64,000 nt of DNA. Source: a phage. Below are positions 2,124-22,090 of the stretch, one piece after another. The notes beneath the pieces were generated by a model that was not told where the DNA came from, searched no databases, and saw only the letters and a list, made by a program, of their open reading frames with translations. Each line of letters opens with the position of its first letter. Positions within the stretch are counted from its first letter, which is position 1. Made by a program: the position numbers and the translations under genes. The DNA lies in sequence record PQ374922.1; one strand, written 5' to 3'.

Positions 2124-2468
2124 ATGGCAGCAGACACCAAACTGAACAAATCCGTGGAGATCCCCCACATCGTCAAATTCGAAAAGCCGAGTGAGCGCAA
2201 GCCACGCAAAACGCGCCGCCTGGTCACCAAGCTGGATCTTCTGAAACAGAAGTTCGGCGACCACAGCGTGTTCACTCGCATTCGAAATGCAATAAAGGAA
2301 GGGCGAACTGAGCTGGAGCTATATCGACCGAACGGTTCGACACGCGCGTATCAGACCACTGACGGCTTACTGGAACTGATCCGCCTGAGCGGGATGACGA
2401 TCGAACCGCGTTCGTCAGGCACTCCTCTGTGCTCCCTGTACGTAATCGGCAATCTTGGGGCGCTGTGA
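2124..2468 (+). CDS. hypothetical basic protein (114 aa)
   Basis: ORF with AGGA upstream; Lys/Arg-rich N-terminal half. Confidence 0.5.
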   Translation: MAADTKLNKSVEIPHIVKFEKPSERKPRKTRRLVTKLDLLKQKFGDHSVFTRIRNAIKEGRTELELYRPNGSTRAYQTTDGLLELIRLSGMTIEPRSSGTPLCSLYVIGNLGAL

Positions 2469-2473
2469 GTTCT

Positions 2474-3875: not shown

Positions 3876-4283
3876 TCAGTGCTCCCGCGCCGGAAGAACT
3901 CCCACTGGTTCGATGCCATCCAACAGCAGGGAGTTCACACCCACATTACTCAGTCTGATCAAGATCGTTCCCCCTGGGTTAACTTCAAAGATACTCATCC
4001 CATTTCCAACCGCGTCGTTGTTAACGAACACACCCTGAGTTGCGATTCGTACTGGTTTATCTGAGTCATTCATGATCTTGAACGTCACGATTATATCTGA
4101 TGTTGTATCCAGTCGCCCAACCATGTGTTGCTTCAGCTTGGCATGGAATGATGGATTAAAAGTGATAATGATGCTGTTATTCTGAGAGTAATAAATACTT
4201 GCTGATAGGTATGGAATCTTCCCTTCATCGCCATGCCGCAGGAGAGGAATTGTGGTCTTCCAGTATGGCTTGAGGGTGCTCAT
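3876..4283 (-). CDS. hypothetical protein (start uncertain)
   Basis: Only long ORF over 3876-4250; C-terminal part looks protein-like, N-terminal extension to 4691 is Arg/Leu/Ser-rich and likely antisense artefact; no convincing RBS. Confidence 0.3.
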   Translation of the reverse strand: MSTLKPYWKTTIPLLRHGDEGKIPYLSASIYYSQNNSIIITFNPSFHAKLKQHMVGRLDTTSDIIVTFKIMNDSDKPVRIATQGVFVNNDAVGNGMSIFEVNPGGTILIRLSNVGVNSLLLDGIEPVGVLPAREH

Positions 4284-5067
4284 GTTCTCATCAAAGCAAC
4301 CTAAAGGTACGAGCTTCTGGAAGGGCTGGAACTCTTGCACGATGATGTCCAGCATACCCTTGTTACAAGTGGGAACGCTGGCCGACAACGTCACAGGTAC
4401 AGTGCGCACTTCTGGGTTCCAGAGTTCGGAAACAGAAATTATTGGCGTGACAAAGATGCGACAGCTCGTAAACAAGAGCATCGAGCATGCCAACAACAAT
4501 CTACTGATCCCGCGCATCAGGGTCACAAAATATCTCCACAGCAAAGGTGCTATTATGTCCAACGTACAATTTAAGAACGAAAACCCTAATTTCGCGGCGT
4601 CCGATAAGTGGCGTCTGACTATCGGAGACCTTGTACTCCTAACCCGTAACATCCACGACTTCAGTATACCAGGGGTGTACTCCGAAGGCATCGATGGTCC
4701 GTCTCCTGGTGACGTGTTGGTTTCTATACCTTCAGAGCGTTTAACCTATGATCCCGTCGTATTTACTTTCGTTATAGACGAGGACTGGAAATCATGGTTA
4801 CAGATCCACCAATGGATTACCAGCAACGTCGGCAAGGATTTGCCTGTCAGCAAGGACATTACCATTGAATTGCTGGATAACCTCAACCGACCGATTGGCC
4901 TCACTCTCGTGCTGGAGGAAGCCCGCCCGACTGCTTTGGACAACGTACTGGTGGACGTAGACGCAGCTGTACCTCAGCTGGTGACGACAGTGACCTTCAA
5001 GTTCCAACAGCTGGTTCCACTATCTGGTGGGAAGGCGATTGATTCTAATCCGCGAAATGCGGTATAA
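4252..5067 (+). CDS. hypothetical protein (271 aa from GTG; alternative ATG at 4555)
   Basis: GTG start preceded by AGGAGAGG at proper spacing; TAATAAATAC late-promoter-like element ~55 nt upstream. Confidence 0.45.
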   Translation: MVFQYGLRVLMFSSKQPKGTSFWKGWNSCTMMSSIPLLQVGTLADNVTGTVRTSGFQSSETEIIGVTKMRQLVNKSIEHANNNLLIPRIRVTKYLHSKGAIMSNVQFKNENPNFAASDKWRLTIGDLVLLTRNIHDFSIPGVYSEGIDGPSPGDVLVSIPSERLTYDPVVFTFVIDEDWKSWLQIHQWITSNVGKDLPVSKDITIELLDNLNRPIGLTLVLEEARPTALDNVLVDVDAAVPQLVTTVTFKFQQLVPLSGGKAIDSNPRNAV

Positions 5068-5097
5068 TTCTATGACATTGACAAGCTGGGATATTTT

Positions 5098-5550
5098 ATG
5101 AAAGAACAACTACAGACAATGGCTACCGAGGACATCATGAACGAACTGGAGCCGCTGATCACAGTGGACCCAGAAGACATGAACCTTGACCAGATCTCAC
5201 TGAAAATCGGGCGCTCTTGGATGGCTGTACAGCGGCATTATCTGCGCGAGGGGCGTTATCTTGAATTTCTCAACGGGCGCTTCCGCCAGATCGATCTCTA
5301 TCTGCGCCGCTACTATGCAGGGGAGTTACCCCCTAACATCTACGCAGAGCGCCCCCTGAAGGTTCGCCCCCTGAAGTCTGACCTAGATACATGGGTCAAA
5401 GCAGACGATGACTATGTGGAGTTGTCTGTTCTGTTACAAGAACAAAAAGCAAAAGTCAAGTTCATAGAGACTTGTTTGGATCGCCTGAACAAACTGGGAT
5501 ACGAAGTGAAAAATGCTATTGAGTGGAGAAAATATATTGATGGTGTATAA
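5098..5550 (+). CDS. possible UvsY-like recombination mediator (150 aa)
   Basis: Size, position next to UvsW-like helicase, and weak pattern similarity (RYYAG, acidic C-terminal helix) to T4 UvsY as recalled. Confidence 0.4.
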   Translation: MKEQLQTMATEDIMNELEPLITVDPEDMNLDQISLKIGRSWMAVQRHYLREGRYLEFLNGRFRQIDLYLRRYYAGELPPNIYAERPLKVRPLKSDLDTWVKADDDYVELSVLLQEQKAKVKFIETCLDRLNKLGYEVKNAIEWRKYIDGV

Positions 5551-5565
5551 CGAGGATCACACATA

Positions 5566-6312
5566 ATGGCATCCCTCCAAGATCTACGCAAGCTGAACGA
5601 CTTCGAAAACCGTCATTACACATTCCAGCAATACGAACTTCCTTACAAGGAACTGGAGTGTGTTACGACGGAGAATGGTCGTCATTACGTTTCACCGTCT
5701 GGTGTAAAACTGACATCCGTCACGACTATGCTGGGACGCACTGGAGATCATGAATGGCTTGAGTCTTGGAGGAAGAAGCTGGGCGCAGAGGCCGCTGACC
5801 TTGAGACCATGCGCTGTGCTGACCGAGGGGAGAAGCTGCACCTTGCGTGTGAACTGTATCTAAAGAACCGCCCAATGAAAGAAGTGTTGGAAGCGGCTGG
5901 CGAATACATGTTCATGTTCAAGCAGCTGTTCCCTTACCTGAACAAGATGACAAAGATCTATGCTCAGGAGATCCCATTATATAGCGAGGTGCTTGGTCTT
6001 GCAGGTCGTGTAGACCTTATCGGGGTTTATGAGGGTAAACCTGCTGTCATCGACTTCAAGACATCGAACACCATGAAGACGCGGGGCATGATCGAGGATT
6101 ACAGTATCCAGCTATGCTTATATTCGGTCATGTTCCAGCAGATGTTCGGCGTCAAGATCACCCGCCTCATCAACGTGATCGCCAACGAGTCTTCCCCTCT
6201 ACCAACCGTCATTGAGTTCAACCGTGATGACATTCTGACAAAGATGTTTGAGCGTGTTCGTCTGTATCATCGCATGGATAAAGAACAAAACGGAGTCTGG
6301 CCGGATCACTAA
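5566..6312 (+). CDS. PD-(D/E)xK family exonuclease (RecB/Cas4/lambda-exo-like)
   Basis: Motif GRVDLIGV...VIDFKTS (D...D/E.K core); AGGA RBS. Confidence 0.55.
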   Translation: MASLQDLRKLNDFENRHYTFQQYELPYKELECVTTENGRHYVSPSGVKLTSVTTMLGRTGDHEWLESWRKKLGAEAADLETMRCADRGEKLHLACELYLKNRPMKEVLEAAGEYMFMFKQLFPYLNKMTKIYAQEIPLYSEVLGLAGRVDLIGVYEGKPAVIDFKTSNTMKTRGMIEDYSIQLCLYSVMFQQMFGVKITRLINVIANESSPLPTVIEFNRDDILTKMFERVRLYHRMDKEQNGVWPDH

Positions 6313-6340
6313 ATACCCCATAATCCTTGGGAGATTTTGT

Positions 6341-7849
6341 ATGGTAGACATTCAGATTGTTAAGGTTAACGAAGTCCGCATGCGTTGCATCGCAGATCTT
6401 TCTATCAGGGAAGAACTTAATGACTACTTCAAATTCGAAGACCCGAACTTCGTTCCCAACCCCTTTTCTAAATGGGACGGGGTTGTCCGCCTATTTACCA
6501 AGTCATCTGGTCTAATCGATATCGGTCTGCTGTTTGAGGTATTTAAGTTCTGTAAGAACAACGGATACACCATTGAACTGGATCCGGCACTGAAGTACAT
6601 TCAGGACATCCCAGATGAAGAAATCCGTGACTTCATCGACAGTCTGCATCCAAAGATCCGCACCGAAAATCACGAATATATCGATGCCGAGACTCGTGAC
6701 TACCAGTACGACACCATCGCCAAGGCTATGCGTCAAACCAGATGCGTCTGTGAACTGGCTACGAGTGCCGGTAAGTCCTTTATTCTGTATGTCATGGCGC
6801 GGTACTACAGGCGGCGCAGAGAAGCTCTCGAAAGTCCTCTGAAGACGCTTATCGTGGTGCCGTCAATCCACCTAGTCACTCAGCTGTACGACAACTTCGA
6901 AGAGTATGCACATGGCAGTGATTGGAAGCCCGTTGTTAACACCCAGCTGATTTTTGAGGGCGCGACAAAGGATATCAGCAAACCAATCGTCATCAGTACA
7001 TGGCAAGGCATTCAAGACCAGCCGAAGGAATGGTTCCACCAGTTCGGTGATATCGTGGTGGATGAAGTGCACACCTCCAAGTCTGAGAAACTGTCTTACA
7101 TCCTAAACAACTGCATCTATGCCGACCAGCGCCTGGGGGTTACAGGTACGCTGGCGAATACCAAAGTTGCCGGGCTTCAGGTGGTGGCTCACTTCGGGGC
7201 GTACCATAAGATCATCACGGCTCGCGATCTTATCAATCTCGGGTACGCCACTGACATCAAAGTGAAGATGATCCAGCTGAAGCACACTCCGGCGGATGCT
7301 GTTGGTCTGGACGGGGATTATTCCAAGGAAATAGAATACCTTATCACACACCAGTCCCGCAACGAACTGATCGCCAAGATGGCACTGAATCTGAAAGGAA
7401 ACGTGGCCATCATGTTCGAACGTATTGATGGTCACATGATGGTCGTGTATGATATGCTGAGCGCGGTCAAGCCCAACGTGTTTGTCATCAACGGGGAAGT
7501 AAAGATCGAAGACCGCCGCCGCATACAGAAAGCGATGGAGGATGGAGAGGACATCACCCTGTTGGCATCATACGGGACAATGCAGCAGGGAGTGTCGATC
7601 AAGAAGCTACACCACCTTGTACTGGCACACCCGAGCAAGTCATATATCCGCGTCATACAGACATTGGGTCGTCTGATGCGTCAGCACTCCTCTAAGGACG
7701 TCGCGTGGATATGGGACTTAGTGGATGATGCATCGTACAACGCCAGCACGAACCACGCTCTTAGGCACTCTCACGAGCGTTACAAGTTTTACCTGGCAGA
7801 GCGCCACCCTGTGGAGTTCATGAAGGTGGCGCTGGGTAATCACGATTAA
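6341..7849 (+). CDS. uvsW: SF2 DNA helicase, UvsW-like
   Basis: Walker A ATSAGKS, DEVH box, helicase C-terminal motifs; start at internal ATG with GGGAGA RBS (ORF track starts at 6248). Confidence 0.7.
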   Translation: MVDIQIVKVNEVRMRCIADLSIREELNDYFKFEDPNFVPNPFSKWDGVVRLFTKSSGLIDIGLLFEVFKFCKNNGYTIELDPALKYIQDIPDEEIRDFIDSLHPKIRTENHEYIDAETRDYQYDTIAKAMRQTRCVCELATSAGKSFILYVMARYYRRRREALESPLKTLIVVPSIHLVTQLYDNFEEYAHGSDWKPVVNTQLIFEGATKDISKPIVISTWQGIQDQPKEWFHQFGDIVVDEVHTSKSEKLSYILNNCIYADQRLGVTGTLANTKVAGLQVVAHFGAYHKIITARDLINLGYATDIKVKMIQLKHTPADAVGLDGDYSKEIEYLITHQSRNELIAKMALNLKGNVAIMFERIDGHMMVVYDMLSAVKPNVFVINGEVKIEDRRRIQKAMEDGEDITLLASYGTMQQGVSIKKLHHLVLAHPSKSYIRVIQTLGRLMRQHSSKDVAWIWDLVDDASYNASTNHALRHSHERYKFYLAERHPVEFMKVALGNHD

Positions 7850-8217
7850 TCTTGATTCACATAGGCGGGGGTGGCCTCGCCTTCATCAGTTACTACACCG
7901 AACAATTTGTCCAGAGAAGCCAGACATTGTGCGTTCAGGTGTTCACTGATCGTATCCTTCAGCATTTGTTCGCTGTTCAATTGGAATGGCAGAACCTTCG
8001 CTTCGATGCCGTTATCAAACGTCACAACGCCAACATACAGACCAACTTTCAGGCCTGTCATCAAGCCAAGGGGGACAAATCGCGGCTCCGATGGTAAGTT
8101 CTTGTCTGACGCCAGCTGTGTCAGATAAACTGGGGTGCCTGTGATAAATTGACCTGTGGTGAGGTTGGCGTCTGGCTTACTACACCCGACTGCGTATAAT
8201 CCTACGAACTGTTTCAT
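7846..8217 (-). CDS. hypothetical small protein, possible lipoprotein
   Basis: Minus-strand ORF with GAGAG RBS; N-terminus MKQFVGLYAVGC resembles a short lipobox; convergent with uvsW. Confidence 0.45.
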   Translation of the reverse strand: MKQFVGLYAVGCSKPDANLTTGQFITGTPVYLTQLASDKNLPSEPRFVPLGLMTGLKVGLYVGVVTFDNGIEAKVLPFQLNSEQMLKDTISEHLNAQCLASLDKLFGVVTDEGEATPAYVNQD

Positions 8218-8380
8218 ATATTACTCTCGTGTGTTGGTTAACATGACATACATATTATTTCGCGTGCATGTTTAGACCAAATAAATTATTTTTGTTGTTG
8301 AATAAAAACTGCTTTCTTGTTGAACAATGGCGTGGTATTATACGAGTTGTGAGCGTTAGCGAACAACGAGTATTTGTTTT

Positions 8381-8400
8381 ATGAGCGAAGCGAATAGGAT
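8381..8400. repeat. 20-mer atgagcgaagcgaataggat (copy 1), preceded by 12-mer tatttgttttat
   Basis: Exact reverse complement present at 53886-53905; 12-mer tatttgttttat also shared (8371-8382 and 53871-53882). Confidence 0.85.
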
Positions 8401-8408
8401 TAATAAAA

Positions 8409-8443
8409 GTTATTATCTTTAATAAGGTTATTATCTTTAATAA
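8409..8443. repeat. tandem direct repeat, 17-bp unit gttattatctttaataa x2
   Basis: Two identical 17-mers separated by 1 nt in the 360-bp intergenic region upstream of the clamp gene. Confidence 0.85.
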
Positions 8444-8449
8444 AGTCCA

Positions 8450-8470
8450 TAAATGCCGAAGGCATTTATT
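8450..8470. repeat. inverted repeat ataaatgcc-gaa-ggcatttat
   Basis: 9-bp perfect stem next to the tandem repeats. Confidence 0.7.
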
Positions 8471-8577
8471 AATAACGCGTAGCGCAATTTGCCACTTGTT
8501 CTATAAGCAAAACACAGCGATACTAGATTTCGTCAAACATGACTTGAACCACCACTATATTTTGAGGATACATACAA

Positions 8578-9246
8578 ATGCAAGAGATCACTCTCTCCGA
8601 ACGTACACTTCAGTTGCTGGCCAACTTTGAGACCATCAACCCATCTATCGTTCTGACACCGGGCAAGATGCTGCGCAGTATTAATGATTCTTCTACTGTG
8701 ATCGCCGTGGCGCAGATCGAAGAAGACTTCCCGTTTGAGTTCCCGATTCTGGACCTGACCAAACTTCTGGCCATCCAGCGCCTACCTTCCTTCAAAGGTG
8801 CCAAAGCCGAATTCCATCAGGACTACATCCTGTTGAAAGGTGAAAGTTCTCAGCTGCAATTCTGGCGTTCTGCTAAAGAACTCACGGTTGTCCCGGCTGA
8901 TACTATCGAACTGCCGTCTGTTGACTTTGAAGCGATCATCACTCCAGAGAAGATGAAAGAACTGACCCGCGCCTGTTCTACCCTCGGACATAAGACTGTG
9001 CGCCTGGTTGCTCAGGGTGGCAAAACTCGCCTGGTTGCAACCACCACTACCCTGGACAACTCCAACAACTACACTGTTGAGCTGGGTGAAACCGCGCTGC
9101 CGGACTTCGTAATGCCGCTGGATGTTGCCAACCTGAAAATGATCGAAGGCAACTACACTCTGCGTGCCTGTGCTGATCTACAGATGGTGAACTTCCAATC
9201 ATCCGACGCGACGATCAATTACTTCGTCGGCGCACAGATTGAGTAA
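8578..9246 (+). CDS. sliding clamp, T4 gp45-like
   Basis: 222 aa, E. coli-optimal codon usage, immediately upstream of clamp-loader ATPase; order 45-44-62-regA as in T4. Confidence 0.8.
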   Translation: MQEITLSERTLQLLANFETINPSIVLTPGKMLRSINDSSTVIAVAQIEEDFPFEFPILDLTKLLAIQRLPSFKGAKAEFHQDYILLKGESSQLQFWRSAKELTVVPADTIELPSVDFEAIITPEKMKELTRACSTLGHKTVRLVAQGGKTRLVATTTTLDNSNNYTVELGETALPDFVMPLDVANLKMIEGNYTLRACADLQMVNFQSSDATINYFVGAQIE

Positions 9247-13530: not shown

Positions 13531-15549
13531 ATGTCAGATTTTAAGCCCTTCGCAGTAGCTGTCAACAATAACGTGCTGGCCATGTCAGCAACTGGTCTGT
13601 TCATGACCAACATCGATAAAGATGCTCTGTGGGATCTGTATCTGTCTTCTTTCCCTGCTGGCACTAACCCGCTTTATCGTGAGCGTACCGAGCACGACTG
13701 TACCTGCTGCAAACAATTCATCCGTAACATCGGCGGTGTAGTCACCATCGACTCCGATCTGAACGTGATCTCTATCTGGGATAACATTCAGCTGGGTAAC
13801 GAATACGACGTTGTCGCTGCGGCGCTGTCAGCATATGTTAAGCAGCACGCAATCGTCGACGTGTACTTCAACGACACCAAGAAAGTTGGTGTTGAATCGA
13901 ATCACGAAATGAAAGACGGTATTGTCCGCACCTACAACCACTTCCACACCGACCTGCTGGGCAGCTATGTTCTGCGGGCAGATACCATCGCTTCTAAGAA
14001 GGGTGAAATCCGCCAGGCGATTGAAGTGTTTGAGCGCGGCCTGCGTGAACTGTCTCTGGAATCGGCTGAAATCGTTCTGGAATTGATCGACCAGAATTCT
14101 CTGTATCGCGGTGAAGAGCACAAAGCGGCAGTGCAGGCGTTCGTGGTGAACAAGACCCTGTACGAACAAACTGCAGAAGAGAAACGCGCTCTGTGGGCTT
14201 GGCGCACTGGCTACCGTGCAAACGGTCATACCCCTCACGGCATTCGTAATACCGTGATTGGCTCTCTGCTGGTAGACCTCAATGAAGGCCGGGATCTGGA
14301 AACCGCCGTGAAGTCCTTTGAAGCCAAAGTCGCTCCGACGAACTACAAGCGCCCAACCGCGCTGGTCACGAAATCCATGATTGAAAACGCGCAGAAAGAA
14401 GTCGAAGCGCTGGGTCTGACTGATTCACTGGGTCGCCGTTATGCCGTGTATGACGATCTGACCATCAACAACGTTCTGTTCGCCGACCTAGCAGCTCAGA
14501 AGAAGATGGACCCGTTTGCTCAGCTGGCGTCTGAAGTGAAGACTCCGACCAAGTCCCTGGACAAGGTTGAAGAGATCACGATCGACGACTTCCTGACCAA
14601 CGTGTTGCCAAAGGCGCATTCCCTGGAAGTGCTGGTCGAAAACTCTCACATTGGCAACCTGATGTCCCTGATCGCTCCGGCCACCGCAGGCGCTCCTAAC
14701 CTGTTCAAGTGGAACAACGGCTTCAGCTGGTCGTACAATGGCGAAGTGGCCGACTCCATCAAAGAGCGCGTGAAGACCGCAGGCGGCAATGTCGACAGCT
14801 TCCTCCGTGTGTCACTGGCTTGGCATAACAACGACGACCTGGATCTGAGCCTGAACGATCCTCTTCACAACCACGTGTATTATCACAACCGTCGTTCGAC
14901 AACTGGCGCAACTCTAGACATCGACATGAACGGTATGGACGGCATTGATCCAAACCGCCGTCCGGTGGAGAACATCTTCTTCAGCGATGAACGCAAGCTG
15001 CGTGATGGTCTGTACGAGTTCTATGTCACTAACTTCAGCCAGCGTGAAACCTGTGATATGGGCTTCGAAATCGAAGTTGAATACAAAGGCCAGACCAAGC
15101 GTTTTTCGCATCCTGGCCTGAAGCACAAAGATCGCACTCTGGCTGTTGTGATTGATGTCCGCGCTGGACAAGTGGTAGACATCCGTTCTACCCTGAAAGA
15201 CGACGCTCGCTCTCAGGAAATCTGGGGCATCAAGACCTCCGTCTTCCAGAAGGTACAGCTGGTTCTGAACTCACCAAACCATTGGGACGGCGAGCAGACT
15301 GGCAACAAGCACGTGTTCTTCATCCTGGAAGGTTGTGCTAACCCTGTCGGCACCCGTGGTTTCTATAACGAATATCTGAAGCCGGAACTTGATAAACACC
15401 GCAAGGTTTTTGAAATGTTAGGTGGTAAGATTAAAGTACAGCCAAGCACTGAGCAGCTGTCCGGTCTGGGCTTCTCTACCACCCAACGCAACCACGTGTT
15501 CGTGAAGGTGAGCGGTTCGTTCAACCGCACTGTGAAAGTTGTGTTCTAA
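13531..15549 (+). CDS. hypothetical protein (672 aa), highly codon-optimised
   Basis: Long ORF with strongly E. coli-optimal codons; no Walker or polymerase motifs seen. Confidence 0.65.
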   Translation: MSDFKPFAVAVNNNVLAMSATGLFMTNIDKDALWDLYLSSFPAGTNPLYRERTEHDCTCCKQFIRNIGGVVTIDSDLNVISIWDNIQLGNEYDVVAAALSAYVKQHAIVDVYFNDTKKVGVESNHEMKDGIVRTYNHFHTDLLGSYVLRADTIASKKGEIRQAIEVFERGLRELSLESAEIVLELIDQNSLYRGEEHKAAVQAFVVNKTLYEQTAEEKRALWAWRTGYRANGHTPHGIRNTVIGSLLVDLNEGRDLETAVKSFEAKVAPTNYKRPTALVTKSMIENAQKEVEALGLTDSLGRRYAVYDDLTINNVLFADLAAQKKMDPFAQLASEVKTPTKSLDKVEEITIDDFLTNVLPKAHSLEVLVENSHIGNLMSLIAPATAGAPNLFKWNNGFSWSYNGEVADSIKERVKTAGGNVDSFLRVSLAWHNNDDLDLSLNDPLHNHVYYHNRRSTTGATLDIDMNGMDGIDPNRRPVENIFFSDERKLRDGLYEFYVTNFSQRETCDMGFEIEVEYKGQTKRFSHPGLKHKDRTLAVVIDVRAGQVVDIRSTLKDDARSQEIWGIKTSVFQKVQLVLNSPNHWDGEQTGNKHVFFILEGCANPVGTRGFYNEYLKPELDKHRKVFEMLGGKIKVQPSTEQLSGLGFSTTQRNHVFVKVSGSFNRTVKVVF

Positions 15550-16025: not shown

Positions 16026-16436
16026 ATGAAACTTGTCATCTGTGATTACTGCGGCCTCCTAGCCGAATTCGTCGGTGGTGATGTTCTCTACCCTCATCGC
16101 CCTGACCTCCGCAATCTGAAGTTCTGGGTTTGTACCCCATGTGATGCCCGTGTCGGTTGCCATGCCCATGGCGACGGCAGACAACCTCTGGGAAGGATGG
16201 CGAATGCCGCTCTCCGTGCCGAGAAGCAAAAAGCCCATAGATCGTTTGACCCATTATGGAAAGGCGGAGAGAGGAGCAGGAGCGACGCTTACAGTTGGCT
16301 GGCGCATAAGCTGGGGATAAAGAAGCGTGAGTGTCATATTGGCTTGTTCGATATCGACATGTGCCGTAAAGTAGTTGTTGTCTGTCAACAATACGAGGCA
16401 CATATCAATGTCAAAGGAAATACAAGAAGCGTTTGA
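16026..16436 (+). CDS. Cys-rich zinc-binding protein (136 aa)
   Basis: CDYCG...CTPCDARVGCHAH cysteine pairs; internal ATG of ORF 15999..16436. Confidence 0.5.
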   Translation: MKLVICDYCGLLAEFVGGDVLYPHRPDLRNLKFWVCTPCDARVGCHAHGDGRQPLGRMANAALRAEKQKAHRSFDPLWKGGERSRSDAYSWLAHKLGIKKRECHIGLFDIDMCRKVVVVCQQYEAHINVKGNTRSV

Positions 16437-16713
16437 GAATCTAACTCAGGCGCTCACCAACTGCAACCGTCTCAACTATTGCAACGACCCATTGCAAAAG
16501 CTGAAGTCCCTGGTAGAATCAGAACTGGCTAAACTGGCCGAATACAACGCCATCCAAGAAGACGTGGCGTTCATGTCGGACACGGTCGTAGACACCCTTC
16601 CGCGCGAAGTGTACAATGTCTTGGACCGCATCGCAAAGGTGGGTTTCCGTGAACCACAAGACGCCAAACCCACCCCCGAAATTCTTACATCCATCGTTGA
16701 CTCGTTTAAGTGA
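16408..16713 (+). CDS. hypothetical protein (101 aa)
   Basis: Starts MSKEIQ; overlaps upstream gene by 29 nt. Confidence 0.45.
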   Translation: MSKEIQEAFENLTQALTNCNRLNYCNDPLQKLKSLVESELAKLAEYNAIQEDVAFMSDTVVDTLPREVYNVLDRIAKVGFREPQDAKPTPEILTSIVDSFK

Positions 16714-16720
16714 GACCACC

Positions 16721-16954
16721 ATGTCTAAAGAGATTATCTTTACCGGGGCGGCGCTTGACACCATGTATGCCCTGTACAATCGTGGTCCACTGAGCATTGG
16801 CGATATCCCGTCTAAGTCAGGTCTGGACTTCCTGTTGCGACATAAGCTGGTTGTGGCTGTGGTAGTCAGGGGTGAAACGCAATACGCCGGGTCGATGGCC
16901 ATGGCTTCCCACTACAAACGTCAGACATGGAAGGGCGCTTCCTCCAAATCCTGA
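16721..16954 (+). CDS. hypothetical protein (77 aa)
   Basis: Starts MSKEII, similar N-terminus to preceding gene. Confidence 0.45.
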   Translation: MSKEIIFTGAALDTMYALYNRGPLSIGDIPSKSGLDFLLRHKLVVAVVVRGETQYAGSMAMASHYKRQTWKGASSKS

Positions 16955-17062
16955 GTTTGTCAAAACCTTTTCAATATCAATAACGTCCAGCGTAAATGCT
17001 GGGCGTTTCAATTTGTGCATCACAGTATAATACGGCTGTACAATACACCATGAGGCTACATT

Positions 17063-17917
17063 ATGTTTCGTTTGAAATTGAACGACCAAGATGTGTTCTA
17101 CAAACACTTCACCTTCCCAGGTGGTGAGGAACATATCAAGATTCAAAAGTCTGGTATCCCTATCGGCCACGTTCAGAACGTGGCGATTGATGCTCACATC
17201 AAATCATCGGCTGACTTCATTGAGCTGGCGCTTCTGGTAAACGCCGTTCGTGGTCTGGGTAACGTGGACCGTCTGACGACATTCCATGCGTATATCCCTT
17301 ACTTCCCGTATGCTCGCCAGGACCGCCATTGTGACTTCGGTGAGCCTCTGTCTGTGAAGTGGGCGGCTGAGTTCATCAATAGCATGAACTTTGACCGCGT
17401 GGCGATCAAAGATCCTCACAGCCATGTTGTGTCTTCTCTGATCAACAACGTCCATGTTGTCCCGCAAGATTACATCGTGCGTCAGTATCTGGGCTGGTTC
17501 ATCCGTGGGAACAACGCTGTGTTGGTAGCCCCTGACGGCGGCGCGGCTAAGAAGACCGAAGCCCTCAGTCTGTCGTTGGACGGTGTTCCTGTTGTCTACG
17601 GTCACAAGAACCGTGACACCAAGACTGGTGAGATCATTGGGGTGAGTATTACGAACCCTGAACTGATCAAAGACCGCTATCTGGTGGTGGTCGATGATAT
17701 CTGCGACGGTGGGCGCACGTTCGTTGAGTTAGGCAAAGAGCTTCAGAAGCACAAGCCTAAGCACATGACGCTCTTCGTTACCCATGGCATCTTCAGCAAA
17801 GGTCTCTCTGTTTTCGACGGGATCTATGATGCTGTGTATGCCGACACTGTCTGGTGGGAGAACATCACCGCCGACGGGCTTCCTTTCAAAACTGAAAATA
17901 CAGGACGTGTAAAATGA
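17063..17917 (+). CDS. ribose-phosphate pyrophosphokinase (PRPP synthetase) family; Prs or ADP-ribose pyrophosphokinase (Adps)-like
   Basis: IPYFPYARQDR and PRPP-binding VVVDDICDGGRTF motifs; 284 aa, shorter than cellular Prs. Confidence 0.85.
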   Translation: MFRLKLNDQDVFYKHFTFPGGEEHIKIQKSGIPIGHVQNVAIDAHIKSSADFIELALLVNAVRGLGNVDRLTTFHAYIPYFPYARQDRHCDFGEPLSVKWAAEFINSMNFDRVAIKDPHSHVVSSLINNVHVVPQDYIVRQYLGWFIRGNNAVLVAPDGGAAKKTEALSLSLDGVPVVYGHKNRDTKTGEIIGVSITNPELIKDRYLVVVDDICDGGRTFVELGKELQKHKPKHMTLFVTHGIFSKGLSVFDGIYDAVYADTVWWENITADGLPFKTENTGRVK

Positions 17918-19578
17918 GCATGCGCCACTTAGACCCAATCCATGCGATCGACTTCTACAAATCGGGGCACATCTATCAGTTCCCTGAAGGCAGTGAGCTG
18001 GTGTTCTCCAACGGAACTCCGCGCTCTAACAAACTGTTCAACTCTCACCTGCCGAAGAACGGCGTGGTGGTCTGGGGCATCCAGGGCTTCATGACCTGGT
18101 TCCACGAACTGTTTGACGAAGCATTCTTCCAGCGCCCGAAGGCCAAGGTGCTGAAGAAGTATGCCCGTCGCATGAACAAAGTCCTGGGTCCAGGCCGCGT
18201 CGGCACAGAGCATATTGAAGCCCTGCATGACCTCGGCTACCTGCCTATCGAAGTCCGTGCGCTGCCTGAAGGCACCATGTGTCCGTATGGCGTTCCGGTG
18301 TATGTGATGTTCAATACCCTGCCGGAGTTCTACTGGCTGACCAACTATCTGGAGACTGTGTTCAGCTCTGAGATCTGGAAGCCGATGACGAACGCCACCA
18401 TAGCTCTGCATTACAAGGCACTGATGGTGAAAGCTGCCCTCGCTACGGGAGTATCACCAGACCATTGGTTCATCGACTACCAAGGTCACGACTTCTCCTT
18501 CCGTGGTATGAGCGGGTGGCATGACGCCGCGTCTTCCGGTTCCGGTCATCTGGTGTTCTTCAAAGGCACCGACACCAACCCTGCCCTGGACTTCGTAGAA
18601 GAGTATTATGGCGCAGACATCGACGAAGACTATGTCGTTGCTGGGTCGGTTGCCGCAACGGAACATGCGGTGATGTGTATGGGCACGAAGGATGGTGAAT
18701 TCGAAACCTTCCGCCGCCTGGTGCAGGACGTGTATCCTGATGGCATCGTCAGCATCGTGTCTGATGCGTGGGATTACTGGCAGGTCATCGACGACTATCT
18801 GCCTCGCCTGAAAGACATTATCATGGCGCGCAATGGTAAAGTCGTGATCCGCCCCGACTCGGGCGACCCTGTACACATCGTCGGCGGCTACCGCATCGAG
18901 GGGTTCAAAGACCGCGCTACGCTGAACATCAGCGGCGTGTCTAGCAGCACCGAAGTTATCCACATCGAAGAGACGAACACCTATCACCTGATCACAGGCG
19001 AAGGCACGATCAACTCTCTGATGGCAGATGACCGTAATATCATCAGCCGTTCAGAAGCGGTCGGCTCTATCCAGCGCCTGTGGGAGATCTTTGGTGGCAC
19101 CCAGACTGAAACTGGGCACTTCCTGTTGGATGAGCACATCGGCCTGATCTACGGTGATTCTATCACCCTGGCGCGTGAAGACCAGATCTTTAGCCGTCTG
19201 GCTGACCGGAACTTCGCTTCCATCAACGTGGTGTTCGGTATCGGTTCCTACACCTACCAGATGAACACCCGTGACAGTACTGGCACAGCAGTGAAAGCCA
19301 CGGCTGGTAAAGTGAACGGTGAATTCCGTGAGATCTTCAAAGAGCCGAAGACCGATAAAGGCGGGACTAAAAAGTCTGCGCGTGGTTTCCTTAAAGTCAT
19401 TAAAGACCCTCAGGGTAAACTAGTGTTGGTTGACGGTATCACTTTTGATCAGGTGCAAGACGCCGACAACCAGCACCAGCTGGTGTATCGTGATGGCGAG
19501 TTCTTCAATACTCAAACACTGGAAGATGCGCGTGTTCGTGCTGCTCCTCTGGTGACGGAACTGGCATCACAAATCTGA
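17914..19578 (+). CDS. nicotinamide phosphoribosyltransferase family (NadV/NAMPT or Namat-like)
   Basis: 554-aa ORF translationally coupled to Prs-like gene (ATGA overlap); recognised as NAMPT-type phosphoribosyltransferase by overall sequence pattern. Confidence 0.8.
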   Translation: MSMRHLDPIHAIDFYKSGHIYQFPEGSELVFSNGTPRSNKLFNSHLPKNGVVVWGIQGFMTWFHELFDEAFFQRPKAKVLKKYARRMNKVLGPGRVGTEHIEALHDLGYLPIEVRALPEGTMCPYGVPVYVMFNTLPEFYWLTNYLETVFSSEIWKPMTNATIALHYKALMVKAALATGVSPDHWFIDYQGHDFSFRGMSGWHDAASSGSGHLVFFKGTDTNPALDFVEEYYGADIDEDYVVAGSVAATEHAVMCMGTKDGEFETFRRLVQDVYPDGIVSIVSDAWDYWQVIDDYLPRLKDIIMARNGKVVIRPDSGDPVHIVGGYRIEGFKDRATLNISGVSSSTEVIHIEETNTYHLITGEGTINSLMADDRNIISRSEAVGSIQRLWEIFGGTQTETGHFLLDEHIGLIYGDSITLAREDQIFSRLADRNFASINVVFGIGSYTYQMNTRDSTGTAVKATAGKVNGEFREIFKEPKTDKGGTKKSARGFLKVIKDPQGKLVLVDGITFDQVQDADNQHQLVYRDGEFFNTQTLEDARVRAAPLVTELASQI

Positions 19579-19585
19579 TAACCGA

Positions 19586-19609
19586 AGGGGAGGCAACTCC
19601 CCTGTTTTG
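19586..19609 (+). terminator. rho-independent terminator after NAMPT-like gene
   Basis: aggggag-gcaa-ctcccct followed by gtttt. Confidence 0.7.
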
Positions 19610-19680
19610 AGGGAAACCTGATGTCTGTGAAGACCGTTATTAAATCCCAACAGGGCTTCGTCTCTGTTAAGTGAGATCAA

Positions 19681-19896
19681 ATGATACTGAAAGAATGTTT
19701 TACCGACCTGAAGGCGACGTCTGAAAGTATTCCGGCTTGCATTCAGAACTATGCTCCAAAGGATGTGCTCTTGGCTCAGCTGGAGCAGTCTCGTGAATTT
19801 ATCAACAATATGCTGGACTCTGTAAAGACGCGCATCGAAGCCGCTGATGAGTCTGAACTTAACCCTTACGCACAAGGCGAAGAAAACAATGATTGA
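19681..19896 (+). CDS. hypothetical small protein (71 aa)
   Basis: ORF after terminator; weak RBS. Confidence 0.3.
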   Translation: MILKECFTDLKATSESIPACIQNYAPKDVLLAQLEQSREFINNMLDSVKTRIEAADESELNPYAQGEENND

Positions 19897-22090
19897 ATCA
19901 TTAGAATTTAAGAATGCGGTTGCGACTGCTGCCCCGTCCAACCATGTAATCGTTGTAGACATTTCCGGCTCTATGTACCGTGCGCTCCCTGAAGTCCGCA
20001 AGCACCTGAAGGAGAACCTGCCATCCCTGGTGAAACCGGAAGACACTGTGAGTGTTCTATACTTCTCATCCAAAGGCGACTTTGGTACTGTGTTCGCTGG
20101 CCGTCAGATCAATGCAGCATCCGACCTGAGCGAAATCAACAATCTGATTGACCGCTTCCTGAAACCGTCTGGTTGCACTGGCTTTGTTGAGCCGTTGAAA
20201 CTGGCGATGGACACTGCTCGTGGCCTGAAGAAGCCTGGCTATGTCAACAACCTGGCGTTCATGACTGACGGGTATGACAACTGCTGGCGTACCAACGAAA
20301 TTCTACTGGTTGCTGAGACCCTGCCATTTGCTTTCGATAACATTACATTTATTGAATATGGCTGGTACTGTAACCGCGAACTGCTGGCGCAGATGGCCGA
20401 ACGCTCTGGTGCTACTCACGTGTTTGCCGAAGGTCAGACCGAATACCAGACCGAACTGGAAAACGTGCTGAAGTCATCAGTGCCGAAGGTGAAAGTTGAT
20501 GTCCCAGTCATCTACACCCATGCCATCTACGTCGAAAACGGTGTGGCAACAGTACTGGCGGTGCAGGACGATGACTCTCACCCGGTCGGCTATGTGAGCA
20601 TCCCTGAGAGCATCACCAAGCTGTGGGTTGTAAACCCTAACATGATCGACCAGCTTGATGCGCTGGCGGATATCCAGGCGGCATACGTGCTGGCGTTCTA
20701 CGGCGTACACATCATGGACGCGGACCTGGTGTGGGCTGCACTGAAGAAAACGGGTGACGTTCGCTTCATCAAACAGTACAGCAACTGCTTCACCAAGCAG
20801 GACTACTCCAACATCAAGAACGATCTGGTTCAGGCGATTGTTGACGACCAGCTGCGCGGCGTTGACGGTATTGACTATGACCTGGTTCCGGCTGAAGATG
20901 CGACCACCGTCGTTGATGTGCTGACGTACCTGGCTGAAGCTGGTGTGCCTGTTGCTACCAAGCATCCGATGTTCTCCTATAAGAGCATCGGGCGCGGTAC
21001 TGTGCAGAAAACCGACGACACCGAAGACAAGCTGGCAGAACAGATCGCGAATGCTCAGTCCAAAGAAGAGCGTAAAGCCCTGGCTCTCAAGCTGGCAGAA
21101 CACGAAGAGTGGAACCCGACGTTCGAACCTACCAACGACCTGGGTGTTGTGCCAATCAGCGATTTGGTCTATAACTCCGAGCGCCCGAACATCAGTGTGC
21201 GTACAATTCAACACGGTACTGTGGCTGTGCCTGAATTCGCACAGAAGAAGTTTGGCCTGCCTGAAGAACTGGACACTTTCCAGTGGCGCAACTACACCAT
21301 CGTCAAAGACGGCATCATCAACGTGAAGACTCTGCCGTTCAAGGCTGATATCGAAGTTGTACAGAAGCTGATCGAAATGGGCGTCCACGTGTTTGGTGGT
21401 CCGGAAGTGTTCATCCTGAACCTGGAAAGCGTACCACTGGTCAACCGCGCCATGGTCAAGAACATCAGTGCTGCTCAGTTCTTTGCGGATAATGTCCGTT
21501 TGGAAGCCCTGAAAGGCAAGCAGAAGGTGCTGAAGTTCTATCGAGACGCCCTGGTTGGTAAGGGTAACGCCAAAGGCCTGGCAGTACAGTACGGTGCTGA
21601 GGCGGCCGAGTTCCTGTCCTCCTACGGTATCCGCGATTACGGCTTCTCACCGAAGACTGAGACCAAAGAGTCTACCGACTTCTACATGAGCCGTGAGCTG
21701 AACGTTAAGATCGCCGGGGCGTCTTCACTACCGAGCATCGCGGCAGTACAGAAGAAGATCGCAGAGAATAAGAAACTCAATGCTGGTGACTTGTTTATCG
21801 CCAATGCTCTGAAAGAGTACGAAGCATTCGTGAAGTCTCCTATGATCACTGCCGTGCCTGAAGCCTTACAGAAACAGCTGATCGAAAACTGGATCGACGC
21901 TGCTGCCAAGGCGGCCATCACCGAAGTCCGTGCCCTGAACAAGACACTGTCTAAAGTGGTGTATGGTATCGTTGCTGGCCACGGCTGGTTCACCGACCTC
22001 GACCTGGAAGAGTCCACCATGGAAGTTGAAGTGGATGGCGTGAAGTACAAGGTCACTGCCGAACTGACAGAGAAAGAAATCAAAATCTAA
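19889..22090 (+). CDS. von Willebrand factor A (vWA) domain protein (733 aa)
   Basis: MIDAS motif VIVVDISGSM...FMTDGYDN near N-terminus; internal ATG 19889 chosen. Confidence 0.7.
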   Translation: MIESLEFKNAVATAAPSNHVIVVDISGSMYRALPEVRKHLKENLPSLVKPEDTVSVLYFSSKGDFGTVFAGRQINAASDLSEINNLIDRFLKPSGCTGFVEPLKLAMDTARGLKKPGYVNNLAFMTDGYDNCWRTNEILLVAETLPFAFDNITFIEYGWYCNRELLAQMAERSGATHVFAEGQTEYQTELENVLKSSVPKVKVDVPVIYTHAIYVENGVATVLAVQDDDSHPVGYVSIPESITKLWVVNPNMIDQLDALADIQAAYVLAFYGVHIMDADLVWAALKKTGDVRFIKQYSNCFTKQDYSNIKNDLVQAIVDDQLRGVDGIDYDLVPAEDATTVVDVLTYLAEAGVPVATKHPMFSYKSIGRGTVQKTDDTEDKLAEQIANAQSKEERKALALKLAEHEEWNPTFEPTNDLGVVPISDLVYNSERPNISVRTIQHGTVAVPEFAQKKFGLPEELDTFQWRNYTIVKDGIINVKTLPFKADIEVVQKLIEMGVHVFGGPEVFILNLESVPLVNRAMVKNISAAQFFADNVRLEALKGKQKVLKFYRDALVGKGNAKGLAVQYGAEAAEFLSSYGIRDYGFSPKTETKESTDFYMSRELNVKIAGASSLPSIAAVQKKIAENKKLNAGDLFIANALKEYEAFVKSPMITAVPEALQKQLIENWIDAAAKAAITEVRALNKTLSKVVYGIVAGHGWFTDLDLEESTMEVEVDGVKYKVTAELTEKEIKI

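What the first reader, a model, noticed from the sequence alone, without database searches (positions are those of the whole stretch)
17063..19578. Coupled PRPP-synthetase-like and NAMPT-like genes: candidate NARP1-type NAD+ reconstitution module
Two translationally coupled genes (stop/start overlap ATGA at 17914-17917) encode a short Prs-family enzyme (284 aa; IPYFPYARQDR and VVVDDICDGGRTF motifs) and a 554-aa nicotinamide-phosphoribosyltransferase-family enzyme, followed by a strong terminator. Such pairs in phages were long annotated as NAD salvage (Prs + NadV). They are now known in some phages to be Adps (ADP-ribose pyrophosphokinase) and Namat (nicotinamide ADP-ribose transferase), which rebuild NAD+ from ADP-ribose and nicotinamide and so counter NAD+-depleting immune systems. 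Sequence alone cannot distinguish the two readings; the short Prs-like protein and tight coupling fit the anti-defence interpretation.
Basis: partly seen in the sequence, partly recalled or inferred. Interest (0 to 1): 0.75.

Follow-up and report, generated by a model that had tools for sequence, protein, structure and literature searches.

The report
Phage NAD+ rebuilding gene pair (NARP1)
These two overlapping phage genes are a typical copy of the already described NARP1 pathway, which rebuilds NAD+ from ADP-ribose and nicotinamide after bacterial immune enzymes destroy it; near-identical copies in sister phages are already catalogued, so the call is correct but not new.

Summary
ORFs 17063-17917 (284 aa, Prs-like) and 17914-19578 (554 aa, Nampt-like) overlap by ATGA, carry the quoted motifs and are followed by a hairpin plus T-run. 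The window is an Agtrevirus-like Ackermannviridae phage (99% nt identity to Escherichia phage LHE287).

Published structure-derived signatures now separate the two readings, and both proteins fall on the NARP1 side.
- The Nampt-like protein has the Namat motif GSYTYQMNTRD and 19 of 20 NAD+-contact residues as in validated Namats. Its best fold match is SPbetaL1 Namat (TM 0.95).
- The Prs-like protein groups with validated Adps, apart from cellular Prs (bootstrap 100/100).
- It keeps the catalytic Lys (K182), shares its PP loop with Bas63 Adps, lacks the Prs C-terminal module, and fails every NCBIfam Prs cut-off.

Both genes are under strong purifying selection, yet the module is deleted in close relatives, as expected for an accessory counter-defence module. 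No Macro, RyR, Nmnat or PnuC/NadR partner lies in the window, so this is plain two-gene NARP1.

It is already known. Orthologues from SKML-39, Ag3 and 0507-KN2-1 are in Osterman et al.'s NARP1 tables, and a 2024 review links the Agtrevirus genes to that pathway. No enzyme or phage experiment exists for this lineage.

The parts
17063..17917 (+). adps: ADP-ribose pyrophosphokinase (Prs-like), 284 aa
   Evidence: ORF. Pfam Pribosyltran and Pribosyltran_N. Below every NCBIfam Prs cut-off, but 304 bits to phrog_619. Groups with validated Adps and apart from cellular Prs, bootstrap 100/100. AF2 model pLDDT 92 with a Prs fold at TM about 0.7. dN/dS 0.03-0.20.
17052..17055 (+). GAGG ribosome-binding site, 7 nt upstream of the adps ATG
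   Evidence: Read directly from the sequence.
17606..17608 (+). Codon for Adps Lys182, the catalytic lysine (equivalent to SPbetaL1 K162 and ICP1 K185)
   Evidence: Alignment mapping. K162A and K185A abolish activity in the reference enzymes (10.1101/2024.02.11.579819; PMC13586617). Invariant in 60 of 60 homologues.
17693..17722 (+). Adps distal-ribose and PP-loop segment DDICDGGRTF (residues 211-220)
   Evidence: Identical to the same segment of Bas63 Adps. Cellular Prs have DD-M-I-D-T-G-G-T-[LI] here.
17914..17917 (+). ATGA start/stop overlap (translational coupling), with AGGA at 17902-17905
   Evidence: Conserved in AV101, SKML-39, EspM4VN, RCIP0012 and the 60%-identical contig L009.
17914..19578 (+). 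namat: nicotinamide ADP-ribose transferase (Nampt-like), 554 aa
   Evidence: ORF. PDB sequence search: SPbetaL1 Namat 9w5x at E = 3.7e-135, mammalian Nampt at about 5e-51. Fold search: 9w5x TM 0.95 and rmsd 2.0 A; H. ducreyi NadV TM 0.92; mammalian Nampt rmsd about 4.1 A. dN/dS 0.01-0.15.
18016..18063 (+). Namat selectivity-clamp loop (SCL), TPRSNKLFNSHLPKNG (residues 35-50)
   Evidence: Same length as the Bas63 loop and similar to it. The third and fourth loop residues are K-L, the second commonest combination in the clade (21 of 120).
18664..18666 (+). Codon for Namat His251, the catalytic histidine in the ATEH motif
   Evidence: Motif mapping.
18889..19062 (+). Lineage-specific insert in Namat (residues about 326-383), at a hypervariable surface site
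   Evidence: Absent from SPbetaL1 and longer in Bas63. The site varies from 12 to 92 aa across 120 homologues. Modelled at pLDDT 58-69 as a short helix plus three strands.
19243..19275 (+). Namat selectivity-clamp helix (SCH) motif GSYTYQMNTRD (residues 444-454)
   Evidence: Matches the published Namat consensus GS-X-phi-X-phi-X-phi-TRD (PMC12774641), except for Met at position 7. True Nampts have GG(A/G)LLQ(K/Q)(V/L)DRD.
19586..19608 (+). Hairpin (7-bp stem, GCAA loop) plus GTTTT tail: probable intrinsic terminator of the two-gene unit
   Evidence: Folding. Not called by the strict scan.

Best explanation
This is a plain two-gene NARP1 module. When a host NADase such as a SIR2, TIR or SEFIR effector cleaves NAD+ into ADP-ribose and nicotinamide, the first enzyme (Adps) transfers the beta-gamma pyrophosphate of ATP onto the distal ribose of ADP-ribose, making ADPR-PP. 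The second enzyme (Namat) then replaces that pyrophosphate with nicotinamide and regenerates NAD+ directly. This lets the phage keep replicating despite NAD+-depleting defences. What is shown here: gene structure, family and clade membership, conservation of the catalytic and substrate-contact residues, purifying selection, and presence/absence variation among relatives. What is inferred by homology to SPbetaL1, Bas63 and ICP1: the chemistry and the anti-defence phenotype.
For: Namat side:
- The SCH motif GSYTYQMNTRD fits the published Namat signature, unlike Nampt (Xcc GGALLQKVDRD, nt-1 GGGLLQQLDRD).
- Of the 20 SPbetaL1 NAD+-contact residues, 16 are identical and 3 carry the same substitution as in-vivo-validated Bas63 Namat. 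Catalytic H251 and R313 (equivalent to R306) are present.
- Phage homologues split into two groups: 37-47% identity, including the Bas63-type and Staphylococcus K-type proteins, and 24-30% for the KVP40-like and T4-like phage Nampts.
- The best fold match is SPbetaL1 Namat, TM 0.95.

Adps side:
- Monophyletic with 17 Namat-associated proteins, including SPbetaL1 and Bas63 Adps, and apart from 6 cellular Prs, bootstrap 100/100.
- K182 aligns with the catalytic Lys. F18, R85, H119, D158, D211 and D212 are conserved. The PP-loop and lid segment DDICDGGRTFVE is identical to Bas63. The C-terminal tail is 42 aa against 64-76 in Prs, so alpha11-alpha12 is lost.
- Below all NCBIfam Prs cut-offs: best is TIGR01251 at 104 bits against 113; the specific Prs models score 47-91 bits against cut-offs of 296-536.

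Context:
- dN/dS is 0.01-0.20 for both genes and the ATGA overlap is conserved.
- The module is deleted in RPN242 and fused by deletion in Ag3. It is present in 8 of 14 Agtrevirus genomes.
- No Nmnat, NadR, PnuC, Macro or RyR family is found in the window.
- The SKML-39 orthologues are in the published NARP1 tables.
Against: No biochemical or genetic test exists for any Ackermannviridae copy; I found no paper combining NARP1 with this family beyond a review remark.

Two published substrate-contact positions are not aromatic here. Namat SCH position 7 is Met450 (Tyr in SPbetaL1, Bas63 and ICP1). The Adps position equivalent to ICP1 Phe92 is Cys90. Both are recurrent variants: Met occurs in 15 of 124 close homologues, Cys in 46 of 60 homologues, and Bas63 has Met at the Adps position.

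Namat enzymes retain PRPP-dependent NMN synthesis in vitro (PMC12774641). H. ducreyi NadV, solved with bound NMN, is a fairly close structural relative. So some Nampt-type activity cannot be excluded. Only 64 kb of the genome is visible, so absence of an Nmnat elsewhere rests on Osterman's genome-wide label for SKML-39.
Confidence: 0.86

Rival explanations
1. Classical salvage, as in the GenBank annotations. The first enzyme is a true PRPP synthetase and the second a true Nampt, so the pair makes NMN from ribose-5-phosphate, ATP and nicotinamide, and host NadR or PncC completes NAD+ synthesis.
For: Pfam and NCBIfam name the families this way, and all close phage records are annotated so. Namat enzymes can make NMN from PRPP in vitro (PMC12774641). 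H. ducreyi NadV is the second-best fold match.
Against: The Prs-like protein fails every Prs cut-off and lies in the Adps clade with 100/100 support. SPbetaL1 Adps gave no product in the Prs-type assay. Bas63 NARP1 works without host NadR and PncC. The window Namat carries the adenine clamp (Tyr446, Thr452, Lys40-Leu41), which H. ducreyi NadV (GAQTYQRNTRD) and Nampts lack. No Nmnat partner is present.
Confidence: 0.05
2. The chemistry is NARP1, but the main role is metabolic upkeep and not counter-defence. The module would recycle ADP-ribose produced by ordinary cellular or phage processes to sustain NAD+ for a large phage with heavy nucleotide metabolism.
For: Bacterial chromosomal homologues (about 50% identity) sit in NrtR-headed operons with Adps-like partners and ADP-ribose-handling genes. 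That looks like housekeeping recycling. The module lies in a replication and nucleotide-metabolism region of the phage.
Against: The module is dispensable: it is lost or broken in close relatives with otherwise intact flanks. In Bas63, ADPR-PP appeared only when a defence system was present. Relatives place a RyR-domain gene next to it, and that family is known to attack Thoeris signals.
Confidence: 0.07
3. The module is an inactive or decaying remnant in this particular phage.
For: Relatives show deletions and fusions of the same genes. Two contact positions are non-canonical.
Against: Both ORFs are full length, with every catalytic residue intact and dN/dS of 0.01-0.20. The non-canonical residues are common, conserved variants.
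Confidence: 0.02

Closest known systems
NARP1 of Escherichia phage Bas63 (JohannRWettstein), genes 79-80; validated in vivo against SIR2-HerA
   Same: Same gene order, with Adps first and Namat second. The Adps PP-loop and lid segment DDICDGGRTFVE is identical. The Namat clamp loop has the same length, and Namat carries the same R40K, A362S and F392Y substitutions relative to SPbetaL1. Both have a large insert at the same Namat surface site.
   Different: Only 34% (Adps) and 46% (Namat) identity. Bas63 has a 45-nt gap between the genes instead of the ATGA overlap. It has Trp instead of Leu at the fourth clamp-loop residue, Tyr instead of Met at SCH position 7, and an 89-aa insert against 59 aa.
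NARP1 of Bacillus phage SPbetaL1 (Adps and Namat characterised in vitro; Namat structures 9W5W and 9W5X)
   Same: Of the 20 NAD+-contact residues, 16 are identical. The catalytic Lys, His and Arg are conserved. Fold TM is 0.95 and rmsd 2.0 A.
   Different: Adps identity is 30%, with a Gram-positive-type PP loop (DDLSSFGGTF). The clamp loop is 4 residues shorter and uses Arg40 for stacking. The Namat insert is 12 aa.
ICP1 NrsA/NrsB (Adps structures with ADPR/ATP and with ADPR-PP/AMP; PMC13586617)
   Same: Conserved: F18, R87, H121, D161, K185, D212, D213, I214, C215, D216 and F221, and the loss of alpha11-alpha12.
   Different: F92 is Cys90 here, A218-A219 is Gly-Arg, and F223 is Glu. ICP1 has a 180-nt gap between its two genes.
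Extended NARP1 forms: NARP1-AP (with the Macro-domain phosphatase Adpp) and RyDEP-linked NARP1 (with a RyR-domain glycosidase)
   Same: The Adps and Namat core. A 60%-identical Ackermannviridae-like contig has a RyR-domain gene directly upstream of adps.
   Different: The window has no Macro or RyR domain. By analogy it should be blind to aRES-type depletion, which produces ADPR-1''-phosphate. It would not by itself convert cyclic ADPR signals.
NARP2 (KVP40-type Nampt plus Nmnat) and NARP3 (PnuC plus NadR-like)
   Same: The same strategic goal, restoring NAD+. NARP2 uses a homologous Nampt-fold enzyme.
   Different: The Nampt of nt-1, a KVP40-like phage, is 28.5% identical by tblastn and 31% in the MAFFT alignment. 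It has the motif GGGLLQQLDRD and no clamp. No Nmnat, PnuC or NadR family is found in the window.
Cellular Prs (for example E. coli Prs) and Haemophilus ducreyi NadV (9KE8)
   Same: Same folds and core catalytic residues.
   Different: Prs has the DTGGT loop, a C-terminal tail about 22 residues longer, and only 23% identity (58 bits). H. ducreyi NadV has GAQTYQRNTRD, with no aromatic residue at positions 3 or 7.

Membership tests
Namat (nicotinamide ADP-ribose transferase) | Nampt-like fold with the conserved catalytic core (catalytic His; Arg306, Asp215 and Phe189 equivalents) | tested here: met
   H251, R313, D220 and F194 are conserved. The AF2 model matches 9w5x at TM 0.95.
Namat (nicotinamide ADP-ribose transferase) | [quoted passage not shown] | tested here: inconclusive
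   GSYTYQMNTRD. Ten of the 11 positions fit, including aromatic Tyr446 at position 3, which had the largest mutational effect in SPbetaL1. Position 7 is Met, not Tyr or Phe. Met occurs at this position in 15 of 124 close homologues, 7 of them outside the Ackermannviridae-type cluster. The paper describes these positions as 'most often aromatic'.
Namat (nicotinamide ADP-ribose transferase) | SCL loop supplying a stacking residue (third residue Arg, Lys or Tyr) | tested here: met
   The loop reads S-N-K-L-F, with Lys at the third residue as in Bas63, and has the same length as the Bas63 loop. Whether Leu41 or Phe42 contacts adenine was not modelled.
Namat (nicotinamide ADP-ribose transferase) | An Adps gene adjacent | tested here: met
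   Overlapping genes. The SKML-39 orthologue is labelled 'Adps-associated' in Osterman's Table S2.
Namat (nicotinamide ADP-ribose transferase) | Preference for ADPR-PP over PRPP as donor | not testable with these tools
   Needs an enzyme assay.
Adps (ADP-ribose pyrophosphokinase) | Membership of the Adps clade, separate from cellular Prs | tested here: met
   Neighbour-joining tree of 24 sequences, split supported 100/100. phmmer bits: Bas63 125, ICP1 125, SPbetaL1 81.5, E. coli Prs 58. Below all NCBIfam Prs cut-offs. Limits: a small tree, with cellular Prs sampled only from E. coli and Actinobacteria.
Adps (ADP-ribose pyrophosphokinase) | Catalytic Lys on the beta-hairpin, and a remodelled PP loop with a Phe lid | tested here: met
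   K182; C214-D215-G-G-R-T219-F220, identical to Bas63.
Adps (ADP-ribose pyrophosphokinase) | Loss of the C-terminal alpha11-alpha12 filament and allosteric module of Prs | tested here: met
   42 residues after the THG motif, against 64-76 in Prs; total length 284 aa against 315-325 aa.
Adps (ADP-ribose pyrophosphokinase) | ADPR-adenine contacts Phe18', Arg87 and Phe92 (ICP1 numbering) | tested here: inconclusive
   F18 and R85 are conserved, but both are also present in Prs. The Phe92 equivalent is Cys90; it is Met in Bas63 and absent in SPbetaL1, so this position does not define the family.
Adps (ADP-ribose pyrophosphokinase) | Converts ADPR plus ATP to ADPR-PP and does not use ribose-5-phosphate | not testable with these tools
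   Needs an enzyme assay.
NARP1 as an anti-defence system | Rescues the phage from NAD+-depleting defences (SIR2-HerA, DSR1/2, type I Thoeris, SEFIR) | not testable with these tools
   Indirect support only: accessory distribution and repeated loss.
NARP1-AP and RyDEP-extended NARP1 | A Macro-domain (Adpp) or RyR-domain gene within or next to the operon | tested here: not met
   No such Pfam family in any window ORF.
NARP2 | Nampt with an Nmnat partner in the genome | tested here: not met
   No CTP_transf_like or NUDIX family in the window. The SKML-39 orthologue is labelled Adps-associated, not Nmnat-associated. The rest of this genome is not visible.
Cellular ribose-phosphate diphosphokinase (Prs) | Reaches the curated NCBIfam Prs score cut-offs | tested here: not met
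   TIGR01251 scores 104 bits against a cut-off of 113. The more specific Prs models score 47-91 bits against cut-offs of 296-536.

The most novel reading that the evidence does not exclude
The Ackermannviridae version may be a functionally shifted NARP1. Its Namat clamp has Met450 in place of the usual aromatic residue and carries a lineage-specific 59-aa surface insert. The slot directly upstream of adps is variable: a gp49_66/RyR-like gene in relatives, and two small ORFs of unknown function here (16375-16713 and 16721-16954). These features could mean altered donor selectivity, for example genuine dual use of PRPP and ADPR-PP. They could also mean the small ORFs are new accessory factors that feed or protect the pathway.
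Probability: 0.08. Interest if true: 0.45.

Novelty: already known. Interest (0 to 1): 0.2.

Why it matters
The practical value is in annotation and phage choice, not discovery. Public records for this phage group still label the genes 'ribose-phosphate pyrophosphokinase' and 'nicotinamide phosphoribosyltransferase', which hides a counter-defence function.

Ackermannviridae are candidates for therapy and biocontrol. Whether a given isolate carries an intact NARP1 should influence its host range on strains with SIR2, TIR or SEFIR NADase defences. About half of Agtrevirus genomes have it, and some carry deleted or fused versions. Isolates lacking Adpp should stay sensitive to aRES-type depletion.

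The natural presence/absence pairs, such as this phage or AV101 against RPN242, offer a ready comparison for testing NARP1 in a new phage family. RPN242 matches the module's flanks at 96-98% identity but has the module deleted.

Tried and rejected
1. NARP3: rejected. It is a PnuC transporter plus a NadR-like enzyme, with different domains.

2. NARP2: rejected. There is no Nmnat or NUDIX family in the window, and the protein is only about 28% identical to KVP40-type Nampt, which has a non-Namat motif.

3. NARP1-AP or RyDEP-extended form: rejected for this phage. No Macro or RyR domain is present, although relatives have a gp49_66/RyR-like gene upstream.

4. Met450 plus Leu41 as an unusual, co-varying clamp: rejected. 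K-L is the second commonest clamp-loop pair, Met at position 7 occurs in several unrelated lineages, and the two do not co-vary.

5. The 59-aa Namat insert as a distinctive domain: not supported. The site is hypervariable (12-92 aa), validated Bas63 Namat has a larger insert, and model confidence there is low.

6. Fold comparison to separate Adps from Prs: uninformative. That PDB copy holds no Adps structure, and all hits are Prs at TM about 0.7.

7. Sigma-70 promoter for the unit: none was called in the 108-nt gap upstream of adps. A perfect TATAAT lies at 17026-17031 without a matching -35 hexamer. Not pursued.

8. YAcAr SLOG (2429-2893) and DUF4326 (35628-35954) as module partners: they are 14-16 kb away, so I treat them as unrelated side notes.

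9. A literature search for experiments on Ackermannviridae NARP1 found none.
Full report
**Observation.** ORF 17063-17917 (+) encodes a 284-aa protein with IPYFPYARQDR and VVVDDICDGGRTF. ORF 17914-19578 (+) encodes a 554-aa protein. The two overlap in ATGA at 17914-17917, and Shine-Dalgarno-like GAGG and AGGA lie 7-8 nt before the start codons. Downstream there is a 7-bp GC-rich hairpin (19586-19603, GCAA loop) followed by GTTTT. It folds at -15.7 kcal/mol over 44 nt, with z = -2.07 against shuffles. The strict terminator scan did not call it, because extending the stem uses up part of the T-run. It is a plausible terminator, not an outstanding one. Family matches are far beyond chance.

**Where the window comes from.** The 2.5-kb stretch is 99.0% identical to Escherichia phage LHE287, 97.9% to AV101 and about 95% to Salmonella phage SKML-39 and Shigella phage MK-13. 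All are Ackermannviridae, subfamily Aglimvirinae. The surroundings are a T4-like replication and nucleotide-metabolism region: UvsW, clamp and clamp loader, RegA, hmdU DNA kinase, ribonucleotide reductase, gp32 and UvsY.

**What is known.** Osterman et al. showed that phage 'Prs + Nampt' pairs are Adps and Namat. Adps pyrophosphorylates ADP-ribose to ADPR-PP, and Namat joins ADPR-PP to nicotinamide to give NAD+. Together they overcome SIR2-HerA, DSR1/2, type I Thoeris and SEFIR. The work covered Bas63 in vivo, SPbetaL1 in vitro and FADO in vivo. Two later structural papers give tests that can be applied to a sequence.
- Namat (PMC12774641): a 'selectivity clamp' made of a variable loop (SCL) and a helix motif, GS-X-phi-X-phi-X-phi-TRD (SCH), which stacks on the adenine of ADPR-PP.
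- Adps (PMC13586617, ICP1 enzyme): a catalytic Lys185 on a beta-hairpin, a remodelled PP loop with a Phe lid that binds the ATP donor, adenine contacts Phe18', Arg87 and Phe92, and loss of the Prs C-terminal alpha11-alpha12 module as a family signature.

**Namat test.** The window protein matches the sequence of SPbetaL1 Namat (PDB 9W5X) at E = 3.7e-135, against about 5e-51 for mammalian Nampt. The identity of 9W5X is confirmed by residue numbering and by the paper.
- SCH motif: GSYTYQMNTRD here, against Bas63 GSYTYQYMTRD, SPbetaL1 GSFTYQYNTRD and ICP1 GSYTYQYVTCD. True Nampts read GGALLQKVDRD (Xanthomonas) and GGGLLQQLDRD (nt-1, a KVP40-like phage).
- Contact residues: of the 20 SPbetaL1 residues that contact NAD+, 16 are identical, 3 carry the substitution seen in Bas63 (R40K, A362S, F392Y), and only Y396 differs, as Met450. 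Catalytic His251 and Arg313 are present.
- Variants: among 124 close homologues, position 3 is aromatic in all. Position 7 is Tyr in 93, Met in 15, His in 8, Phe in 7 and Cys in 1. Met occurs in seven proteins outside the Ackermannviridae cluster. The K-L pair in the clamp loop is the second commonest combination. The clamp is therefore an ordinary variant.
- Insert: the 59-aa insert after RPDSGDPVHIVGG sits at a hypervariable site (12-92 aa; Bas63 has 89) and is modelled with low confidence.
- Fold: the AF2 model (pLDDT 90.5) matches SPbetaL1 Namat best (TM 0.95, 2.0 A), then Haemophilus ducreyi NadV (TM 0.92), then mammalian Nampt at about 4.1 A.
- Distribution: phage homologues split into a 37-47% identity group (Felixounavirus, Staphylococcus K-like and others) and a 24-30% group (KVP40-like and T4-like phages).

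**Adps test.** The Prs-like protein scores below every NCBIfam Prs cut-off: TIGR01251 gives 104 bits against 113, and the more specific Prs models give 47-91 bits against 296-536. It scores 304 bits against the phage family phrog_619.
- Tree: I took sequences from Osterman's Table S1 and from fetched loci and built a 24-sequence neighbour-joining tree. The window protein groups with all 17 other Namat-associated proteins, including SPbetaL1 and Bas63 Adps, and apart from six cellular Prs. The split has 100/100 bootstrap support.
- Residues, mapped onto the ICP1 structure: F18, R85, H119, D158, K182 (the catalytic Lys), I191, D211, D212, I213, C214, D215, T219 and F220 are conserved. The segment DDICDGGRTFVE is identical to Bas63. 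The tail after the THG motif is 42 residues, against 64-76 in Prs.
- Deviations: the Phe92 equivalent is Cys90. This position is Met in Bas63 and missing in SPbetaL1, so it does not define the family. A218-A219 and F223 of ICP1 are Gly-Arg and Glu here, as in Bas63.
- Fold: the AF2 model (pLDDT 92) has a Prs fold at TM about 0.7. The PDB copy held no Adps, so fold comparison adds nothing on substrate choice.

**Is it functional, and is it accessory?** dN/dS against five relatives is 0.03-0.20 for adps and 0.01-0.15 for namat. The ATGA overlap is conserved even at 60% protein identity. Yet the module is dispensable.
- Phage RPN242 keeps the flanks at 96-98% identity but has lost window 17209-19038 and 19184-19626.
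- Shigella phage Ag3 carries an in-frame Adps(1-222)::Namat(226-554) fusion.
- The AV101 paper found the pair in 8 of 14 Agtrevirus genomes.

Strong constraint where the module is present, together with repeated loss, fits an accessory counter-defence module.

**Which NARP variant?** Pfam scans of all 78 other ORFs in the window found no Macro (Adpp), RyR (RyDEP), NUDIX or CTP_transf_like (Nmnat), NadR or PnuC family. It is therefore plain NARP1. It is not NARP1-AP, RyDEP-extended NARP1, NARP2 or NARP3. By analogy it should fail against aRES, which yields ADPR-1''-phosphate.

**Novelty.** Osterman's Table S1 lists the SKML-39, Ag3 and 0507-KN2-1 proteins as Adps homologues with a Namat neighbour. 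Table S2 labels SKML-39 Namat 'Adps-associated'. A 2024 review of Ackermannviridae cites that work when discussing the Agtrevirus NAMPT and RPPK genes. No experiment on this lineage was found. The finding is a correct re-identification of a catalogued system, so interest is low.

**Residual uncertainty.** The chemistry and the phenotype are inferred by homology. Namat enzymes keep some PRPP-dependent activity, so a minor Nampt-type contribution cannot be excluded. Only 64 kb of the genome was visible.

Noticed in passing
L007 (Fibrella aestuarina HE796683) 3361-8174; L008 (Chitinophaga caseinilytica CP186934) 4321-8627: Chromosomal Bacteroidota homologues of the window Namat (about 50% identity, Namat-type motif) sit in operons headed by an NrtR-type regulator (NUDIX + WHD_NrtR). 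Each has a short Prs-like partner carrying Adps-type signatures, alongside ADP-ribosylglycohydrolase, DUF4291 or KptA/Tpt1-like genes. From general knowledge, NrtR responds to ADP-ribose. This looks like a housekeeping ADP-ribose-to-NAD+ recycling operon induced by its own substrate.
   Followed up: partly
window 16390-16935; L014 (SKML-39) 3513-4307; L009 4073-4963: The slot directly upstream of adps is variable. SKML-39 has a 264-aa Phage_gp49_66-domain gene there. It is a full-length homologue (40% identity, E = 7e-63) of a 296-aa gp49_66 + RyR-domain protein in the divergent contig L009. EspM4VN and RCIP0012 have genes of similar size in the same position. The window, AV101 and RPN242 instead have two small ORFs of unknown function (112 aa and 78 aa). 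The 112-aa ORF keeps the same C-terminal tail, SIVDSFK.
   Followed up: partly
window 17209-19038 and 19184-19626 (absent from L010, phage vB_EcoM-RPN242): A close Aglimvirinae relative has lost the module through two internal deletions, leaving about 145 nt of namat. Dickeya phage phiDP23.1 keeps only the last 20% of namat.
   Followed up: yes
Shigella phage Ag3 protein P0009 (compare window 17063-17728 and 18589-19578): Ag3 encodes an in-frame fusion of Adps residues 1-222 to Namat residues 226-554, joined at a shared FVE. It is probably a deletion that inactivates both enzymes. PHROG family phrog_12872 ('nicotinamide phosphoribosyl transferase') appears to be modelled on this chimera, so it hits both window proteins.
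   Followed up: partly
window 2429-2893 (+): A 155-aa protein with a YAcAr (YspA/cpYpsA-related SLOG) domain (E = 4.7e-11), a fold family predicted to bind nucleotide-derived ligands. It lies 14 kb from NARP1.
   Followed up: no
window 35628-35954 (+): A 109-aa DUF4326 protein (E = 3e-23) of unknown function, lying in a cluster of small ORFs.
   Followed up: no
window 13531-15549 (+) and 19847-22090 (+): Two large conserved proteins of unknown function flank the module region. The first is 672 aa (phrog_1735; its L009 homologue is labelled DUF8224). The second is 747 aa with an N-terminal von Willebrand A domain (phrog_2426). Both are retained in RPN242, which lacks NARP1.
   Followed up: no
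PDB 9KE8 and 9KEO (Haemophilus ducreyi NadV): This NadV, solved with bound NMN and nicotinamide, is much closer to the Namat branch (E = 6e-105 to the window protein) than to Xanthomonas or mammalian Nampt. Its motif, GAQTYQRNTRD, is intermediate. Branch membership alone does not predict donor specificity.
   Followed up: partly
window 17026-17031: A perfect TATAAT hexamer lies 32 nt upstream of the adps start, in the 108-nt intergenic gap, with no recognisable -35 element. Just upstream is a small hairpin (CCAGC-GTAAAT-GCTGG) followed by a T-rich stretch, which could end the preceding gene's transcript.
   Followed up: no
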